This document shows positions 58,254 through 63,978 of a stretch of 64,000 nt of DNA, one piece after another. A program made the position numbers and the translations under genes. How positions within the stretch are numbered: position 1 is the first letter of the stretch; each line of letters starts with the position of its first letter. Origin of the DNA: an uncultured Ruminococcus sp. (GTDB taxonomy: Bacteria > Bacillota > Clostridia > Oscillospirales > Acutalibacteraceae); assembly GCA_944415425.1 (NCBI GenBank), contig CALYBP010000005.1, positions 487 through 64,486 on the forward strand, read 5' to 3'. The notes under the pieces are model-generated. The model had not been told where the DNA came from. It ran no database searches and saw only the letters and a list, made by a program, of their open reading frames with translations.

Positions 58254-58595
58254 CTAATTCAATTTAACAATTTCATGTTCTCGTGTACCATATATGCGTC
58301 GAACCTGATACAGGCAATCATCAATCCAATATGTAATTTTATCTTCCGCCATATCATTGGTATAGATATTTGTACAAATCAGATTTTGCTTTTCGTTGGT
58401 ACCTCCACAGGCAATGGGCAGTATATGGTGGATATTCCAACCGCAATATACCGTCCTTCCCCAACGAATAACGCAGTAATTTGCATTTCCATATCCGTCT
58501 CTGCACATTAGGTTGCCATGAAAATCCTCTGCAAAACGAACATTGCCATAGTATGCGTCCCACAGGCGCAACGCATTGGATTTACATATTTTCAT
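58254..58595 (-). CDS. Small HNH endonuclease-domain protein (113 aa)
   Basis: WNIHHILPIACGGTNEKQNLICTN HNH motif. ATG 58595 follows GGAGGTG. Confidence 0.82.
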   Translation of the reverse strand: MKICKSNALRLWDAYYGNVRFAEDFHGNLMCRDGYGNANYCVIRWGRTVYCGWNIHHILPIACGGTNEKQNLICTNIYTNDMAEDKITYWIDDCLYQVRRIYGTREHEIVKLN

Positions 58596-58617
58596 TGTAT
58601 CACCTCCAACCCGGATC

Positions 58618-58950
58618 AAAATAAAAGCCCATACACAACCATGTGTGTACAGGCATCAACGATCCGAGTCGAAACTTTACACACATAGCAACAAAGACAT
58701 CAGCCGAAGCCGTTGCCTAATGTTGTATGGTGTAAAGCTTTGATACAGCAACTTGGGCCCACCTCAAAAGAGATAAATATCTCTCGGAGCCTATCTTGTG
58801 GGTTCTCAGCATCGTAACGAGAATTTCAATCGATGTTGATAGTATCTCAGAATTACAATTTTTTCATCGTAGGCGTTTTGAACCCGGTTGTTCTTTGGGA
58901 TTTCTCGTCGATCCGGCATACAAACTGATTCAAATTTAACATATCCTACA
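58618..58950 (-). ncRNA. Candidate structured non-coding RNA (about 330 nt) upstream of the HNH gene
   Basis: Own promoter; three helices whose G-U pairs favour the minus strand, one capped by a cUUCGg tetraloop; ends in a hairpin plus U-tract before the HNH RBS. Confidence 0.65.
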
Positions 58951-59097: not shown

Positions 59098-59472
59098 ATG
59101 GCTAAAACAATATTTGAACAAACGGGCGGCACATACACCATGCAGGGCGACTATTGTCTGCCCGATCTTACATTACCCGCCGAAGAAGAACGCCTCATCG
59201 GTGTCTGGGCGCAGCGCCGCAGACAGTACCTGAAGCAGCACCACAAAATCCTGTACTACAATCTGCTCACTTCCGGCAAACTCCGTTTCCACCTCGCTGA
59301 TGTGGAGAAAGAAGCGCAATCTCTTTTTCTTCGGCTAGTCAAAGAATACGCCGAGCGTGAGGGCGTAACCGAACAGCTGAAAGCGGAGAATCCAATGGAG
59401 TGGGTGCAGAAAATGAACAATATCCGCAATCGGGCGGCAGAAACCGTTTATGCCGACTTGATTTTTGCGTAG
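59098..59472 (+). CDS. tnpV: TnpV family protein
   Basis: GGTYTMQGDYCLPDL, IGVWAQRRRQYLK, LLTSGKL, QLKAENPMEWVQKMNNIR: typical TnpV sequence. Confidence 0.88.
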   Translation: MAKTIFEQTGGTYTMQGDYCLPDLTLPAEEERLIGVWAQRRRQYLKQHHKILYYNLLTSGKLRFHLADVEKEAQSLFLRLVKEYAEREGVTEQLKAENPMEWVQKMNNIRNRAAETVYADLIFA

Positions 59473-59535: not shown

Positions 59536-59591
59536 TAATTTTGTGGTATACTATACTCAGTGAATTTATGGCAGATAGGAGGATACCAGTC

Positions 59592-60986
59592 ATGTTTATC
59601 GGCAGAGAGCGTGAACTTGCGGCGCTAGATAAGCTGTACGAATCGGATAAGTTTGAATTTGTTGTAATCTATGGTCGCCGCCGTGTCGGCAAAACAGCGC
59701 TGATCAGCCAGTTTATTGATGATAAAAACGCCATCTATTTTATGGGCGTTGAGAGCAACGCCAAGCAAAACCTCGAAAATTTCAGCAAGAGCATTCTAAG
59801 CTTCCACACCGGCATGGACGCCGAAACCTCTTTCCTGTCCTTTCAGGCGGCTTTGGAGTATGTGTTCAAGTTGTCCGAAAAGGAACGGATTATTCTTGCC
59901 ATCGACGAATACCCCTATGTTGCCCGCTCGTCGAAAAGTCTCGCTTCCACCATACAACTTTTGATTGACCAATACAAAGATACTTCCAAGCTGATGCTGA
60001 TCCTCTGTGGTTCGTCGATGTCCTATATGGAAGACCACGTCCTTGCCTACAAAGCGCCGCTTTACGGCAGACGGACGGCGCAAATGAAAATTCTTCCCTT
60101 TGACTTTAAAGAGACTTGCCATTATTTCAAAAATTTCACGGATGAAGAGAAAGCCTATGTATATGGAATCGTAGGAGGAACACCGCAGTATCTGCTTCAG
60201 ATGAGTGATAAGCTGAGCATTGAGGACAATATTAAAAACACATTTCTGAACCCCAACTCCGCCCTATTTGAGGAGCCGGAAAACCTACTCAAGCAGGAGG
60301 TGCGGGAACCGGCGCTCTATAATGCGATCATCACGGCGATTGCCACCGGCGCTTCCCGTATGTCGGAGATTTCCGGAAAGGTCGGCGAAAGTACCAACAT
60401 TTGCTCCGCCTATGTGAAAAACCTGATCTCCCTCGGCATTATCGAAAAAGAAACGCCATACGGTGAAAAAGCATCCCGGAAAGCGATTTACACCATTGCG
60501 GACAATATGTTCCGCTTTTGGTATCGTTTTGTACCGGAAAACAATTCGATCATCGCCCGTGGTGCTGCCGATTTGGCATACAAGCGCATCGAGCCGCATC
60601 TGTCCGACTATATGGGCAAGGTGTTTGAGGAAATCTGCAAGCAGTATCTCTGGAAGCAGCTGCTCTCTGGCGAATGCCCGGTTGAGTTTTCCTCTCTCGG
60701 CCGCTGGTGGGGCAACGATCCCAAAGAAAAACGGCAGGCTGAAATCGATATTCTTGCGGAACAAGATAAAAACACTGCCCTTTTCGGGGAGTGTAAATGG
60801 ACGAATGAAAAAGTCGACCTCGGCGTTTTGGATACTCTCATAAAGCGCAGCGAGCTGTTCCCCTATCAAAATGTCCACTACTACCTCTTTGCCAAAACCG
60901 GCTTCACCAAAGGCTGCACCGATCGGGCAAGTGAGATGGGGAATGTGACGCTGGTGAGGTATGAGGATATTGTGAGTGGGATGTAA
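59592..60986 (+). CDS. Archaeal-type ATPase (ATPase_2) with wHTH and DUF234/PD-(D/E)XK-like C-terminus
   Basis: FIGRERE; Walker A YGRRRVGKT; Walker B IDEYPY; GGTPQYL; EIDILAE...FGECKW. Start ATG 59592 follows AGGAGG. Confidence 0.85.
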   Translation: MFIGRERELAALDKLYESDKFEFVVIYGRRRVGKTALISQFIDDKNAIYFMGVESNAKQNLENFSKSILSFHTGMDAETSFLSFQAALEYVFKLSEKERIILAIDEYPYVARSSKSLASTIQLLIDQYKDTSKLMLILCGSSMSYMEDHVLAYKAPLYGRRTAQMKILPFDFKETCHYFKNFTDEEKAYVYGIVGGTPQYLLQMSDKLSIEDNIKNTFLNPNSALFEEPENLLKQEVREPALYNAIITAIATGASRMSEISGKVGESTNICSAYVKNLISLGIIEKETPYGEKASRKAIYTIADNMFRFWYRFVPENNSIIARGAADLAYKRIEPHLSDYMGKVFEEICKQYLWKQLLSGECPVEFSSLGRWWGNDPKEKRQAEIDILAEQDKNTALFGECKWTNEKVDLGVLDTLIKRSELFPYQNVHYYLFAKTGFTKGCTDRASEMGNVTLVRYEDIVSGM

Positions 60987-61003: not shown

Positions 61004-61045
61004 AAGCCTCCTTTGACGCTATGATGCGGGTCGAAGGAGGCTTTT
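61004..61045. terminator. Bidirectional terminator
   Basis: AAGCCTCCTTTGAC-N12-GTCGAAGGAGGCTT followed by TT. Confidence 0.7.
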
Positions 61046-61086: not shown

Positions 61087-61689
61087 TTAAACACTAGCAA
61101 TAGGAATGGTCATTAAAATTAAAAGCATAATCAGGCAGATCAACGCATTGCGAATACAAATATAAGATGCAAATACAAGATTGTTTCTGATTATATTCCT
61201 TGATATATTTCTATTAATGCAATCATCATATTTGATTTTTGTATCTTTATTATCTGAGCTCAGATCGATTAAATCAACAACAGACATAGTATTTTCTACA
61301 AATAAAACTTTTATGGCCACGATGCCTGCCGACAATAGATATAATATAGCAAATAGTAAGATAAAAAAAGCTGTCCAATGTAGCCAAACAAAAGAAAATC
61401 TATTAATTATTGTATTAATCATTCCAGAAGAAGCCGTGATCAATGTAATTGCGATAGTAATCCCGATTACATTAGTTTTAGCTTTGTCTTCAAATTTGTT
61501 TTTTGTGTCAAATGCCTCTAAGTATTTCTGCCGAAAACTGTCTATAGAAATCTGATCAAAATTAGCCTTATACGAAGAGTTGCTTTGACAATCTGGATTT
61601 TCTATTTTCTCCTTTAGCGTTCTATTTGCTTTAATATATGAAATTGTAGGTAAAATTTGTTCAAAAACTTTTTTTAACCACTTTTTCAT
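61087..61689 (-). CDS. Three-TM membrane protein co-transcribed with the ATP-grasp gene
   Basis: Hydrophobic segments after FEDKAK, at WTAFFILLFAILYLL and at the C-terminus; start lies 3 nt after the ATP-grasp stop. Confidence 0.7.
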   Translation of the reverse strand: MKKWLKKVFEQILPTISYIKANRTLKEKIENPDCQSNSSYKANFDQISIDSFRQKYLEAFDTKNKFEDKAKTNVIGITIAITLITASSGMINTIINRFSFVWLHWTAFFILLFAILYLLSAGIVAIKVLFVENTMSVVDLIDLSSDNKDTKIKYDDCINRNISRNIIRNNLVFASYICIRNALICLIMLLILMTIPIASV

Positions 61690-61692
61690 CGT

Positions 61693-62634
61693 TTACACCG
61701 CCAATAGTTCTTCAACAATTGCTTTTTCAATTGGTATATTACAACCGGAACTGAGACAGCCCCATTCTCCTGTAGGATTCACTTCAATAAAATAGTATTT
61801 GTTATTAGAAATTATTAGATCAATTCCGCCAAATACCAACTTCAATTTATCCATTAGTTCTAGTATTTTATCTTTGACATTTTGAGGTAAAAATGTTTCT
61901 GTATACTGTAAAGTCTTCTTCGGATTTTTTCTCCAATCCCCAACAATATGTTGGCCATTATTGGTAATACTAACAGGATATATTTTTGAGCCTATAACGG
62001 TAACTCGTAAATCAAGCTTGTTTTCTAGATATTCTTGCAAAATAATTGGAGCGTCATTAATGTTTTCATCAAGAAGATCTTGACCATTGACCATAGTTGA
62101 ATATGTAAATAATTCTTGTGTGTCTGTATAAAACAAAGCAGTATCTAATGGCTTAACAACATAATTATTTGTCAATGAAATATACTCTGGCACCACATTA
62201 CCTATATATGTTTGAGGTACATGTAATCCAATTTCTTTAGCACATTTCAGTTGATAAAGTTTATTTTCAGCTTTATATGTACTGACGGGATGATTTATCC
62301 ATTTTGCTTTTCCAAAAACAATCAAATTACGAATGAAGGAGCTCCATTGGCTTCGATATAATTGTTCATGCAAATCATATTTTTTATGTGAGCGTAAAAA
62401 AACCGGTGCTCGAAAATAAATTCCTTTGAGAGTGCGGTTGCTTACCACATATAAGTCGTCATCCATATATATGGTCATCGTTGCATTCTGTAAATTGTAC
62501 AATATTTTATATTTGCTAAAATGATCTCGGTTTAATCGGATATATCGTACTTTCCTCTCATATAATTCATAGCAGATTAAATCCGTTGAATAATCAATGG
62601 AAGAAGAAATAATTAAATAGTCAACTTCATTCAC
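61693..62634 (-). CDS. MvdC/MvdD-like ATP-grasp peptide macrocyclase (graspetide synthetase)
   Basis: KAENKLYQLKCAKEIGLHVPQT, VVKPL, LQEYLENKLDLRVTVIG, DWR, FGGIDL...FIEVNPTGEWG. GTG start at 62634 overlaps the precursor stop. Confidence 0.85.
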   Translation of the reverse strand: MNEVDYLIISSSIDYSTDLICYELYERKVRYIRLNRDHFSKYKILYNLQNATMTIYMDDDLYVVSNRTLKGIYFRAPVFLRSHKKYDLHEQLYRSQWSSFIRNLIVFGKAKWINHPVSTYKAENKLYQLKCAKEIGLHVPQTYIGNVVPEYISLTNNYVVKPLDTALFYTDTQELFTYSTMVNGQDLLDENINDAPIILQEYLENKLDLRVTVIGSKIYPVSITNNGQHIVGDWRKNPKKTLQYTETFLPQNVKDKILELMDKLKLVFGGIDLIISNNKYYFIEVNPTGEWGCLSSGCNIPIEKAIVEELLAV

Positions 62635-62833
62635 CTTTTTGATCCTCTCCTGTCTCAATATCACATTTTTTAGAAGTTGGTTTTTTGGGATTATCACTTT
62701 TCATCATAGCTTTATTGGAAATGTTTTCAATCCAAAAATCCTCCTTGGATTTATACGTACATCCGTCAGGATTTTTATTATTAATTGACACCTCATATCT
62801 TTTTGCTTTTTCAAGAATAATGTGCTCTTTCAT
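62627..62833 (-). CDS. Putative graspetide precursor peptide (68 aa)
   Basis: C-terminal core PTSKKCDIETGEDQKGE rich in T/S/K donors and D/E acceptors; directly upstream of and overlapping the ATP-grasp gene; AGGAGA RBS. Confidence 0.75.
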   Translation of the reverse strand: MKEHIILEKAKRYEVSINNKNPDGCTYKSKEDFWIENISNKAMMKSDNPKKPTSKKCDIETGEDQKGE

Positions 62834-62901
62834 TTTGACATCTCCTTTATATTAAACTGAAAACCATATAAATTGGAAAAGTTTGTTTGCGAAATACGGA
62901 T

Positions 62902-63978
62902 TTAAAAGCTTTCCGGCACTAATGCCAACTTGTTGATTGATTCGTGAGCTCTGACAAGTGAGTCATATACAGCCAAAACATCTTCAGAATCCCAAGTGCG
63001 CAAAGAGTTTTCGTCGATAACCCCGGCGCTTTCCCGGATAATTTTTGCAAGCTGTTCTTCGTCGGCAACAGCAACCACAGCCTGAACAGCCGCATTGCTC
63101 TGTGCCTTTTTAAGGTTAAGGATCAGACTGTCGATAGAACCTTTGGACTGCACCTCAAATACATAAATGGCTTTACCCATATTTCCGATTTTGGCTTCCC
63201 ATACTGCATCCACAACAGCTCCGGCTGTAATTTTTACTTCAGAACGGCTGTCAAATCCCAGAAGTTCGCCAATTGCGACCAGTTTTTCTTTGATTTCATC
63301 GTGCAGAGATTTTGAGTCGCTGACAGTCGTAGGCTCCTTGGGCTCAGAGACAGGAGTTTCTGCGGATTTCTTTTCGGCAAGTGGTAAAATCTCGTCCCAC
63401 AGAAAGTAATCGACCGCCAAGAGATCATAATTCTCCGCACCGGATTTCTTTAGTTCTTGGGCAATTCCTTTTGCAATGGTGCAGACTTCTATATATTTCT
63501 TTCCAGTGTACTGATAATTGTATTTTGGCATATCAGGAATGTCCAAGTATCCAAAACAAAGAATCGTTGTCTTATTAAAGATTACATATTCTTGAGGATT
63601 AGCGTATGTAAGAAGTTCACTGATTGTCGCAGGCCCCATACCTTTTACGGACTTGAGAAATAAATCCCACCGTTTCTCAATGGGGCTTGTCCCATACAAC
63701 AATTCTGCTAATTGCTTTTTTAGTGCCAAAAATCCATTGTCAGCAATCAACTTATCCACAACATATTTCTTATTGCCCCAAATCAGCATAGACCAAAGTT
63801 TGCTGACATACTCCAAGAACTCGTCTTCCGTCATAGATAACAACTTATCTTTTGTAAATGATTGATAATAAAGCTTTCGCTCTCTTCGTTCCGCCCAATG
63901 ATCCTCATAATAAGCAGCGTTTGATTTTTGATTTTTCAAAAAAGCAGAAATAGCTACATCTAACTTCTGTACATTCAT
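62902..63978 (-). CDS. Restriction-endonuclease-like protein (HhH-like N-terminal domain plus PD-(D/E)XK-like C-terminal domain)
   Basis: VKGMGPATISELL...VIFN N-terminal region; VDAVW...YVFEVQSKG C-terminal motif; GGAGG RBS. Confidence 0.55.
   Translation of the reverse strand: MNVQKLDVAISAFLKNQKSNAAYYEDHWAERRERKLYYQSFTKDKLLSMTEDEFLEYVSKLWSMLIWGNKKYVVDKLIADNGFLALKKQLAELLYGTSPIEKRWDLFLKSVKGMGPATISELLTYANPQEYVIFNKTTILCFGYLDIPDMPKYNYQYTGKKYIEVCTIAKGIAQELKKSGAENYDLLAVDYFLWDEILPLAEKKSAETPVSEPKEPTTVSDSKSLHDEIKEKLVAIGELLGFDSRSEVKITAGAVVDAVWEAKIGNMGKAIYVFEVQSKGSIDSLILNLKKAQSNAAVQAVVAVADEEQLAKIIRESAGVIDENSLRTWDSEDVLAVYDSLVRAHESINKLALVPESF

What the first reader, a model, noticed from the sequence alone, without database searches (positions are those of the whole stretch)
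61087..62833. Graspetide precursor, ATP-grasp ligase and membrane protein triplet in a defence-like island
Seen: three tightly coupled AT-rich genes: a 68-aa precursor with a single core TSKKCDIETGEDQKGE, an MvdC/D-like ligase and a 3-TM protein. There is no peptidase, ABC exporter or acetyltransferase. The neighbours are nuclease-type genes. Known: graspetide synthetases form ester or amide crosslinks between T/S/K and D/E, and secreted-product clusters often include export/cleavage genes. Inference: the macrocyclic peptide may act inside the cell, for example as a signal, antitoxin or phage-protease sensor controlling the membrane protein, which would be a RiPP-based immunity system.
Basis: partly seen in the sequence, partly recalled or inferred. 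Interest (0 to 1): 0.75.

Follow-up and report, generated by a model that had tools for sequence, protein, structure and literature searches.

The report
Mobile three-gene graspetide peptide cassette
This is a real, intact three-gene cassette for a cross-linked (graspetide) peptide of an already catalogued family; its constant membrane-protein partner and its habit of sitting among phage-defence genes are unexplained and worth testing, but the proposed immunity role is not shown.

Summary
The three minus-strand genes exist as described. They are a 68-aa precursor (62627-62833), an ATP-grasp ligase (61693-62637) and a 3-TM protein (61087-61689). They are translationally coupled, have 31% GC, and are transcribed in chicken-gut metatranscriptomes.

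The family is not new. The precursor matches 'cluster171' of Makarova et al. 2022, which equals group 7 of Lee et al. 2020. A Bacillus relative, Gra-3, was expressed as a three-gene cluster in E. coli and gave a 3-fold dehydrated peptide. That peptide was described as marinomonasin-like.

What I add:
- In 80 loci from many bacterial phyla and from archaea, only these three genes are conserved. No peptidase, ABC exporter or GNAT comes with them.
- The 15-residue core is nearly invariant (81% pairwise identity against 25% for the leader).
- The membrane partner has no Pfam, NCBIfam, PADLOC, PDB or Foldseek relative.
- Flanking genes are rich in Thoeris, Gabija, RM, OLD and DRT genes and in integrases/ICE genes. 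They give about 10-20 times more PADLOC hits per protein than 38 ordinary genes of the window.

The graspetide reading is supported. The immunity reading is plausible from context only, and I put it at about 0.25-0.3. Verdict: a new member of a known kind.

The parts
62627..62833 (-). Graspetide precursor gene, 68 aa. The leader is residues 1 to about 51, with H4-I-I-L, Y13 and a predicted beta-hairpin at residues 25-36.
   Evidence: ORF. It belongs to Makarova cluster171, which is Lee group 7. 53 homologues were found. Alignment A5. AlphaFold shows only a hairpin, pLDDT 69.
62630..62680 (-). Core peptide, residues 52-68: P-T-S-K-K-C-D-I-E-T-G-E-D-Q-K-G-E. Likely donors are S54, K55 and K56 (also T61 and K66). 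Likely acceptors are D58, E60, E63 and D64 (also E68).
   Evidence: K, K, D, E, G, E, D and K are invariant in 76 of 76 loci, and the T/S position always holds T or S. Core pairwise identity is 0.81 against 0.25 for the leader. The relative Gra-3 loses 3 waters in this segment.
61693..62637 (-). ATP-grasp graspetide ligase (macrocyclase), 314 aa from GTG 62637. The longest ORF starts at 62697.
   Evidence: NCBIfam TIGR04187 3e-51 and MvdC 2e-49, both below cut-off. Pfam RimK and ATP-grasp_3. Profile against PDB: AMdnB 7M4S 2e-42, MdnB, CdnC and MdnC. 780 homologous clusters. The window protein keeps all 90+ invariant residues of A1, including E285 and N287 in FIEVNPTGEW.
61087..61689 (-). Family-specific 3-TM partner protein, 200 aa, short variant. 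The N-terminal 72 residues and the loop 129-170 are cytoplasmic. TM helices lie at about 73-95, 101-128 and 171-197. Invariant motifs E-D-K-A-K-T-N and N..RN.IRNN...C-I-R-N sit at the inner membrane face.
   Evidence: Present in 77 of 80 loci directly after the ligase. 108 homologues by word search and 680 representative clusters by profile search, nearly all stand-alone and 190-300 aa. Alignment A4. AlphaFold pLDDT 83.5, all helical. Hydropathy and charge. No Pfam, NCBIfam, PDB or Foldseek relative.
61004..61045 (.). Strong hairpin between the convergent TM gene and the ATPase_2/DUF234 gene. It is a likely bidirectional terminator marking the 3' end of the operon.
   Evidence: Fold energy -20.8 kcal/mol on the minus strand and -29.9 on the plus strand, z = -5.6 on both.
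62834..62901 (-). 68-nt spacer upstream of the precursor, with an AAGGAGA ribosome-binding site. It has no terminator-like fold, so read-through from the 358-aa gene is possible.
   Evidence: Sequence. Fold z = -0.29. One metatranscriptome contig spans 62665-63111.

Best explanation
The locus is a horizontally mobile, self-contained member of the group-7 (marinomonasin/Gra-3-type) graspetide family.

How it works:
1. The 68-aa precursor binds the ATP-grasp ligase through its N-terminal leader.
2. The ligase uses ATP to activate side-chain carboxylates of the invariant D/E residues in the C-terminal core. It joins them to the adjacent S/T-K-K donors.
3. The product is a tricyclic C-terminus that has lost three waters. 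This is shown for relatives and inferred here.
4. The third gene encodes a family-specific 3-TM protein whose conserved residues face the cytoplasm. It is the obligate partner that receives the modified peptide at the inner face of the membrane.

What the membrane protein does is inferred and weakly supported. My committed reading is that it releases or exports the peptide, or scaffolds its maturation. The product would then act outside the cytoplasm, like other graspetides, which are protease inhibitors.

The cassette travels as cargo of ICEs, prophages and defence islands.

Confidence is about 0.9 for the identity and the ligase chemistry. It is about 0.45 for the export role of the membrane protein.
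For: Identity:
- The precursor matches cluster171 / 'gr_07' in the supplements of PMC8939145.
- The ligase hits RiPP ATP-grasp models and solved graspetide ligases.

Chemistry in relatives:
- Gra-3 of Bacillus sp. S66 was refactored as a three-gene cluster: precursor, ligase and a 'hypothetical protein'.
- In E. coli it gave a 3-fold dehydrated C-terminal fragment, called similar to marinomonasin (PMC9576775).

Cassette structure:
- Only the ligase (80/80), the TM protein (77/80) and the precursor (76/80) are conserved. The next most common gene cluster occurs in 4-5 loci.
- The genes overlap or abut.
- One apparent ligase-TM fusion exists.
- The TM gene is intact in 74 of 77 loci.

Expression: metatranscriptome contigs cross every gene junction.

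Topology: the conserved motifs lie on the cytoplasmic side.

No other transporter is conserved.

All functionally characterised graspetides are protease inhibitors, as stated in bioRxiv 10.64898/2026.08.04.741601.
Against: - Nothing was measured for this locus.
- A three-helix protein with no ATPase or known transporter fold is an unusual exporter. It has no structural relative.
- No leader peptidase or GG-type cleavage site is present.
- The core is far more conserved than the leader, the reverse of most secreted RiPPs.
- Neighbours are dominated by defence and mobile-element genes, not by transport or resistance genes.
- In the Gra-3 experiment the peptide was purified and then trypsin-digested before MS. 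I read this as recovery of a largely uncleaved precursor from cells even though the third gene was co-expressed. That reading is my inference from the methods.
Confidence: 0.6

Rival explanations
1. The cassette is a cell-autonomous conflict system, either anti-phage or anti-plasmid defence by abortive infection or an addiction module. The 3-TM protein would be a membrane-damaging effector. The ATP-dependent, continuously made tricyclic peptide would bind its cytoplasmic face as a keeper, or as an activator. Infection could disturb that balance by host shut-off, ATP drop, or a phage protease or inhibitor.
For: - It is a compact three-gene module with a small TM protein, no exporter and no peptidase.
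- Its distribution is patchy across bacterial phyla and archaea, and its GC is low relative to its flanks.
- Nearest neighbours include ThsB-TIR, DUF4145, ResIII, OLD-TOPRIM/GajA, type IIG RM, Schlafen-like helicase and KilA-N. Second neighbours include GajB, DRT, PDC-S15, HindVP, DpnII, integrases and recombinases.
- PADLOC family hits per protein are 237/137 for nearest and 105/122 for second neighbours, against 3/38 for ordinary window genes.
- All six independent contexts read gene by gene contain RM, GmrSD, TIR, an AAA_15 pair, RT, ArdA or ICE genes. Marinobacter and Vibrio loci are flanked by DUF4145 plus ThsB, or by prophage terminase genes.
- The core is invariant while the only co-conserved partners are the ligase and the TM protein.
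- RiPPs with an anti-phage role have a precedent in lanthipeptides (bioRxiv 10.1101/2024.06.26.600839, listed).
Against: - The evidence is guilt by association only, without a matched background of other accessory genes.
- RiPP clusters in general ride on ICEs and co-localise with defence genes (PMC12715929, listed).
- The triplet matches no PADLOC, NCBIfam or PHROG defence family.
- Some loci, such as Vibrio hibernica and Deefgea, appear to sit among housekeeping-type genes, judged from ORF sequences only.
- Gra-3 with all three genes was tolerated in E. coli.
- No paper in the library reports such a function.
Confidence: 0.27
2. The membrane protein is a self-protection (immunity) or maturation factor, for example a leader peptidase, for a peptide that leaves the cell by general routes or by lysis. 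The cassette would be an ordinary competition or anti-grazer BGC that happens to be mobile.
For: - Small multi-TM immunity proteins are common in bacteriocin loci (established knowledge).
- Makarova et al. suggest that an uncharacterised membrane protein in thuringinin loci substitutes for missing transporters. They leave a second membrane family, cluster 40, unexplained.
- Microviridin maturation is known to depend on a membrane protein scaffold (reference cited).
Against: - The invariant residues are K, E, N, R, T and P. There is no conserved His or Ser and no HExxH or CPBP-type motif, so there is no recognisable peptidase site.
- Graspetides are not known to attack membranes, so a TM immunity protein lacks an obvious rationale.
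- The Gra-3 peptide was purified and needed trypsin digestion before MS, with the third gene present.
Confidence: 0.1

Closest known systems
Group-7 graspetides: marinomonasin (Marinomonas fungiae; Kaweewan et al. 2021) and Gra-3 (Bacillus sp. S66; Ayikpoe et al. 2022, PMC9576775). The precursor family is cluster171 of Makarova et al. 2022.
   Same: - The precursor has the same architecture: an HILL..A leader, G.W, then [S/T]KK.D.E.GED.K at the C-terminus.
- The ligase belongs to the same clade. Bacillus-type loci are 41-43% identical and Marinomonas 44%.
- The three-gene layout is the same.
- Gra-3 shows three dehydrations.
   Different: - The window copy comes from an uncultured chicken-gut Clostridia bacterium.
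- Its core ends in ...QKGE, whereas the Bacillus branch stops at ...GEDLK and has R in place of T61.
- Its membrane partner is the short 200-aa variant.
- Ring connectivity and bioactivity for this branch are unknown. From memory, marinomonasin has one ester and two isopeptide bonds, but that paper is not held in the library.
Microviridin clusters (mdnA-E / mvdA-F)
   Same: - The ATP-grasp macrocyclases are homologous: MdnB and MdnC are among the best PDB hits.
- A leader-guided ligase forms ester and amide crosslinks on a conserved T/S/K...D/E core.
   Different: - There is one ligase instead of two.
- There is no GNAT (MdnD) and no ABC transporter (MdnE).
- The leader motif differs: there is no PFFARFL.
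- A different, unclassified 3-TM protein is the only accessory gene.
Thuringinin-type (group 3) loci with an uncharacterised membrane protein (Makarova cluster 18)
   Same: These are also graspetide loci that lack known transporters and carry a family-specific membrane protein of unknown role, proposed there to be a transporter.
   Different: The precursor and ligase branches are different. I could not test any relation between the two membrane protein families.
Abortive-infection defence modules that end in a small transmembrane effector (for example TM effectors of CBASS, Pycsar, Thoeris or retron systems; established knowledge)
   Same: Compact operon, a small multi-TM protein as the last gene, a defence-island and mobile-element context, and a patchy phyletic spread.
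   Different: - There is no nucleotide-signal synthase and no known sensor.
- The would-be ligand is a ribosomal tricyclic peptide.
- There is no homology to any PADLOC model apart from a weak, rejected hit to a CARF-linked TM model (E 5.6e-4).
- No phenotype is known.

Membership tests
Graspetide (omega-ester/amide RiPP) biosynthetic locus | An ATP-grasp ligase of the MdnB/MdnC (MvdC/MvdD) RiPP-maturase clade | tested here: met
   TIGR04187 3e-51, MvdC 2e-49 and MvdD 6e-35, all full length but below the equivalog cut-offs. PDB profile hits to AMdnB, MdnB, CdnC and MdnC, 2e-42 to 2e-32.
Graspetide (omega-ester/amide RiPP) biosynthetic locus | An adjacent small precursor with a conserved leader and a core holding S/T/K donors and D/E acceptors | tested here: met
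   A 68-aa ORF overlaps the ligase start. The motif [T/S]KK.D.E.GED.K is found in 76 of 76 loci that have upstream sequence and the motif.
Graspetide (omega-ester/amide RiPP) biosynthetic locus | Side-chain macrolactone or macrolactam crosslinks actually formed | not testable with these tools
   Shown by MS for the relative Gra-3, which loses three waters (PMC9576775). Not measured for this peptide.
Group 7 of Lee et al. 2020 / cluster171 of Makarova et al. 2022 | Precursor consensus ..HILL..A....PE...YD...G.W....P.TKK.DVETGEDQKGE | tested here: met
   The window precursor fits the published consensus position by position. Members of cluster171 are labelled gr_07.
Microviridin-type cluster | Two ligases plus a GNAT acetyltransferase and an ABC transporter, with a PFFARFL leader | tested here: not met
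   There is a single ligase. No GNAT or ABC transporter occurs in the window island or among 259 flanking proteins at a count of 2 or more. The leader lacks the motif.
Known anti-phage defence system | Sequence match of a component to a curated defence model | tested here: not met
   PADLOC gives no hit for the precursor or the ligase. The TM protein has only a weak hit (5.6e-4) to a CARF-linked TM model. NCBIfam and PHROGs give nothing relevant.
Known anti-phage defence system | Family-wide enrichment next to known defence genes | tested here: inconclusive
   Defence and mobile-element genes dominate the neighbours. PADLOC hits per protein are 10-20 times those of a 38-gene control. The control is small and is not made of matched accessory genes. 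The tool returns only family counts, so no per-locus score could be computed.
Known anti-phage defence system | Protection against phage, or a toxic effector, shown experimentally | not testable with these tools
   No report was found in the paper library.

The most novel reading that the evidence does not exclude
The group-7 graspetide triplet would be a peptide-based immune or addiction module. An ATP-grasp ligase would keep a tricyclic ribosomal peptide in supply, and the peptide would gate a dedicated membrane effector. Phage infection or loss of the mobile element would then flip the cell into membrane failure. This would be the first graspetide with an intracellular regulatory role. It would also be a defence mechanism shared by bacteria and archaea.
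Probability: 0.25. Interest if true: 0.8.

Novelty: new member of a known kind. Interest (0 to 1): 0.4.

Why it matters
As an object, the locus is ordinary: one more member of graspetide group 7, whose modification has already been shown in relatives.

Three family-wide points appear not to be in the literature I could search:
- The only obligate accessory gene is a 3-TM protein. Published HMM-based co-occurrence tables cannot see it, because it has no Pfam or TIGRFAM model.
- The core peptide is almost invariant from gut Firmicutes to marine Proteobacteria and methanogens.
- The cassette sits among defence systems and on ICEs and prophages.

Together these make a cheap, well-defined experiment worthwhile: three genes, a toxicity test and a phage panel. 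It would either give graspetides a first non-inhibitor, cell-autonomous function or settle the role of the membrane partner as an exporter.

Tried and rejected
- Near-identical DNA. There is none in plasmids. No relative of a Buttiauxella cassette occurs in 5,426 E. coli genomes. The phage collection holds only distant ATP-grasp genes at 28-31% identity, so the cassette is not typically phage-borne. Plasmid hits of this family are limited to Rhizobium, Agrobacterium, Martelella and Azospirillum.
- Fold of the TM protein. Foldseek against PDB and against viral models gave nothing with E below 0.08. The NINJ1 and other helical-bundle hits were rejected as non-significant. The sequence profile against PDB gave nothing.
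- The weak PADLOC hit of the TM protein to a CARF-linked TM model (5.6e-4) was rejected as probable compositional similarity.
- Peptidase hypothesis for the TM protein. There is no conserved His or Ser and no metal motif.
- Domain fusions as functional hints. Among 680 representatives, only one ligase-TM fusion was found, and it may be a frameshift artefact.
- A charge-complementarity argument (acidic core, basic cytoplasmic face) was dropped. Crosslinking removes three acidic and two basic charges, and the loop 129-170 is not net basic.
- A fourth conserved gene. None was found. The 358-aa upstream gene is specific to this lineage.
- Papers not held in the library: marinomonasin, Lee 2020, Ramesh 2021 and Iyer 2009. 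Statements about them rest on citing papers or on memory and are marked as such.
- The published statement that group 7 often carries a GNAT and a Bcr/CflA efflux pump was not reproduced. In my species-dereplicated 80 loci, neither was listed among the 25 most frequent Pfam families of either neighbour set. It may reflect many near-identical genomes of one species; that is my inference.
Full report
**1. The observation**

On the minus strand of the window lie three ORFs:
- a 68-aa ORF at 62627-62833;
- an ATP-grasp ORF at 61693-62697 in its longest form;
- a 200-aa ORF at 61087-61689.

Homologues of the ligase are about 314 aa and start at VNEVDYL. The real start is therefore most likely GTG 62637. 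It overlaps the precursor stop (GTGAATGA) and follows a GGAGAGGA ribosome-binding site. The membrane-protein ATG lies 3 nt after the ligase stop.

The triplet has 30.6% GC against 42.8% for the window. A strong hairpin at 61004-61045 separates it from the convergent downstream gene (z = -5.6 on both strands). The 68-nt spacer upstream of the precursor has no such structure.

The window sequence occurs in many chicken-gut metagenomes. Contigs of chicken-gut metatranscriptomes cross the 358-aa-gene/precursor, precursor/ligase and ligase/TM junctions at low depth. The locus is therefore transcribed, probably as one message. DNA carry-over cannot be excluded.

**2. What the genes are**

The ligase:
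- It matches the ATP-grasp ribosomal-peptide maturase models over their full length: TIGR04187 3e-51, MvdC 2e-49, MvdD 6e-35. All scores are below the curated cut-offs, so it forms its own subfamily.
- A profile of the family finds the solved graspetide ligases AMdnB, MdnB, CdnC and MdnC as its best PDB matches.

The precursor:
- It has no Pfam or NCBIfam model.
- It ends in P-T-S-K-K-C-D-I-E-T-G-E-D-Q-K-G-E.

The third protein:
- It has three hydrophobic helices at about 73-95, 101-128 and 171-197.
- A lysine-rich N-terminal 72 residues and the loop 129-170 are placed in the cytoplasm.
- AlphaFold gives a confident all-helical model with pLDDT 83.5.
- It has no relative in Pfam, NCBIfam, PHROGs, PDB sequences, PDB folds or viral folds.

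**3. Conservation**

The ligase family has at least 780 clusters at 90% identity. It gave 362 hits in one-genome-per-species contigs. The 80 fetched loci span the following groups:
- bacteria: Bacillota, Alpha- and Gammaproteobacteria, Myxococcota, Bacteroidota, Chloroflexota, Planctomycetota, Omnitrophota, Acidobacteriota and Saccharibacteria;
- archaea: Methanobrevibacter and other Methanobacteriota.

In these loci the same layout recurs: a peptide of about 67 aa, then the ligase, then the membrane protein. All-against-all clustering of 859 ORFs shows what is shared. The ligase is in 80/80 loci, the membrane protein in 77/80 and the precursor in 76/80. The four loci without a precursor include two contigs that start inside the ligase gene and one with a frameshifted ligase. 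The next most frequent gene cluster is present in only 4-5 loci.

Precursor conservation:
- Within the core, K-K, D, E, G-E-D and K are invariant in 76 of 76 loci.
- The preceding residue is always T or S. T61, G67 and E68 are nearly invariant.
- Mean pairwise identity is 0.81 for the core and 0.25 for the preceding leader stretch.
- Alone, the precursor is predicted to be disordered apart from a beta-hairpin at residues 25-36.

Membrane protein conservation:
- It comes in a short form of 235 aa or less, as here (24 loci). A long form with an extra C-terminal tail of about 85 aa beyond the last TM helix occurs in 50 loci.
- Its invariant residues are K63, E67, K69, K71, T78, N161, N165, R168, N169, N170, N181 and P196. 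They cluster at the cytoplasmic ends of TM1 and TM3.
- The gene is intact in 74 of 77 loci.
- A profile search of 1.84 billion representatives finds 680 relatives, nearly all stand-alone and 190-300 aa. One is an apparent ligase-TM fusion.

**4. It is a known family**

The supplements of Makarova et al. 2022 (PMC8939145) list this precursor family as cluster171. Its consensus is ..HILL..A...PE...YD...G.W...P.TKK.DVETGEDQKGE. The corresponding ligases are labelled as already found by Iyer et al. and Lee et al., with precursor group gr_07. The main text does not discuss it.

Ayikpoe et al. 2022 (PMC9576775) refactored a three-gene cluster of this group from Bacillus sp. S66. It held the precursor ...PLPSTKKHDVERGEDLK, an ATP-grasp ligase and a 'hypothetical protein'. 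In E. coli they obtained a 3-fold dehydrated C-terminal tryptic fragment, with three donors and three of four acceptors modified. They called it similar to marinomonasin. From memory only, marinomonasin is an 18-residue tricyclic peptide with one ester and two isopeptide bonds. That would fit S/T-K-K as donors, but the paper is not in the library.

Carter et al. 2026 (PMC13097080) report that group 7 (433 BGCs) co-occurs with GNAT (46%), LysR (26%), Bcr/CflA (25%) and Ash (15%). The membrane partner has no HMM, so that table cannot show it. In my dereplicated loci, GNAT and efflux genes were not listed among the 25 most frequent Pfam families of either neighbour set.

**5. Genomic context**

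The window:
- The island starts after K+ transport genes at about 57.6 kb.
- It contains a weak HNH-like ORF, TnpV, an ATPase_2+DUF234 protein (PADLOC candidate PDC-S27, 2.6e-68), the triplet and an unassignable 358-aa ORF.
- In the two closest relatives, L001 (ligase 99% identical) and L086 (98% DNA identity), fragments of a type I restriction R subunit precede the 358-aa ORF.

The family, by neighbour rank:
- The 137 nearest neighbours are led by ThsB-TIR (4), DUF4145 (4), ResIII (4), OLD-TOPRIM (3), AAA_21 (3), DDE transposase (3), Schlafen-type helicase, Eco57I/MmeI type IIG enzymes, KilA-N and TIR_2. PADLOC names ThsB, GajA and type IIG RM.
- The 122 second neighbours add serine recombinases, tyrosine integrases, GajB, a DRT reverse transcriptase-helicase, PDC-S15, HindVP and DpnII.

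At E of 1e-10 or less, the number of PADLOC families hit per protein is:
- 237/137 for nearest neighbours;
- 105/122 for second neighbours;
- 3/38 for ordinary genes of the window.

This is a crude 10-20-fold excess. It is inflated by redundant models and limited by a small control that is not made of matched accessory genes.

Six contexts read gene by gene agree:
- an ICE cargo region with a T4SS coupling protein, a STAND-like ATPase, an AAA_15 pair and recombinases. The ligase of this cassette is indexed in 180 blocks of the public assembly collection;
- a Tn916-like ICE with ArdA and SIR2;
- an AAA_15 pair plus a 1045-aa RT and RNase T;
- an EcoRI methylase plus GmrSD-HNH;
- T4SS genes plus ThsB-TIR and nucleotide-modification genes;
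- the window's own island.

In Proteobacteria, a Marinobacter locus is flanked by DUF4145 and ThsB. A Vibrio locus abuts lambda-like terminase genes. Other loci appear to sit among housekeeping-type genes, judged from ORF sequences only.

**6. How it most likely works**

Shown for relatives and inferred here: the leader docks on the ligase, which uses ATP to couple three of D58, E60, E63 and D64 to S54, K55 and K56. This gives a tricyclic C-terminus.

Inferred: the membrane protein is the obligate partner and meets the peptide at the inner membrane face. What it does there is open.

I commit, at about 0.45, to release, export or scaffolding. My reasons:
- Every characterised graspetide is a protease inhibitor (statement in the preprint read).
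- No other transporter is conserved.
- Graspetide clusters are known ICE cargo.

The TM protein would be an effector controlled by the peptide, in a defence or addiction module. In its favour are the three-gene architecture, the context statistics, the archaeal-bacterial spread and the invariant core. Against it:
- The evidence is purely associative.
- There is no similarity to known defence components.
- Lanthipeptide and graspetide BGCs also co-localise with mobile and defence genes.
- Gra-3 with all three genes was tolerated in E. coli.

I found no paper linking this family, or any ATP-grasp RiPP system, to phage defence.

**7. Verdict**

The graspetide interpretation is supported, and the immunity interpretation remains a reasonable but untested hypothesis.

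The locus is a new member of a known kind. Interest is moderate at 0.4, because the family's biology is unexplained and easily testable. The open points are its obligate orphan membrane partner, its near-invariant core and its defence-island and ICE habitat.

Noticed in passing
window 62902-63978 (-): A 358-aa ORF lies directly upstream of the precursor. It has no Pfam, NCBIfam, PADLOC or PDB match. A metatranscriptome contig (62665-63111) joins it to the precursor gene, and the spacer has no hairpin. In the close relatives L001 and L086 it follows fragments of a type I restriction R subunit. It does not accompany the triplet elsewhere.
   Followed up: partly
window 59541-60986 (+): An ATPase_2 + DUF234 protein lies convergent to the triplet. 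It matches the PADLOC candidate defence family PDC-S27 (E 2.6e-68).
   Followed up: partly
window 58254-58619 (-) and 59098-59472 (+): A small HNH-like ORF (weak hits only) and a TnpV transposon protein (E 1.6e-45) mark the island as mobile-element cargo. The GC drop and the end of the K+ transport genes place the island boundary near 57.6-58 kb. No tRNA lies nearby.
   Followed up: partly
L087 7582-8008; L088 6507-6933; L089 7544-8008: Some loci carry two tandem 68-aa precursor genes. Their leaders have diverged, but their cores are near-identical apart from the variable positions (H/E and I/R).
   Followed up: partly
P0333 (599 aa, metagenomic protein): This is an apparent fusion of the ligase (residues 1 to about 345) with the membrane protein (349-594). 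It is a single case among 680 representatives and could be a real fusion or a frameshift artefact.
   Followed up: partly
L086 5946-6548 (98% identical to the window): A 1-nt indel truncates the membrane protein after about residue 148, before TM3. L015 and L078 also have split membrane-protein genes. This may be decay or sequencing error.
   Followed up: partly
Supplement of PMC13097080: The published co-occurrence table shows graspetide group 10 next to AAA_15 (43%), a PcrA-type helicase (40%), phage integrase (39%) and relaxase (35%). That is a Gabija-like and mobile-element context, read there as possible self-resistance genes. Defence-island association may therefore extend beyond group 7.
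   Followed up: no
L092/L093 10146-13220: Immediately after the triplet comes a ThsB-TIR gene. It is followed by Nmad2, an HMUDK_hel-type protein and a thymidylate-synthase homologue, a cluster that looks like nucleotide modification.
   Followed up: no
window 61004-61045: A strong hairpin lies between the convergent genes (-20.8 and -29.9 kcal/mol, z = -5.6 on both strands). The simple terminator scan missed it because its loop is long.
   Followed up: yes
window 1-57600: Among the 38 ordinary genes used as a control, one matches PADLOC candidate PDC-M26A (8.9e-37). Two WYL regulator models are each hit by one member (5.1e-27 and 1.4e-14). I did not locate or examine these genes further.
   Followed up: no
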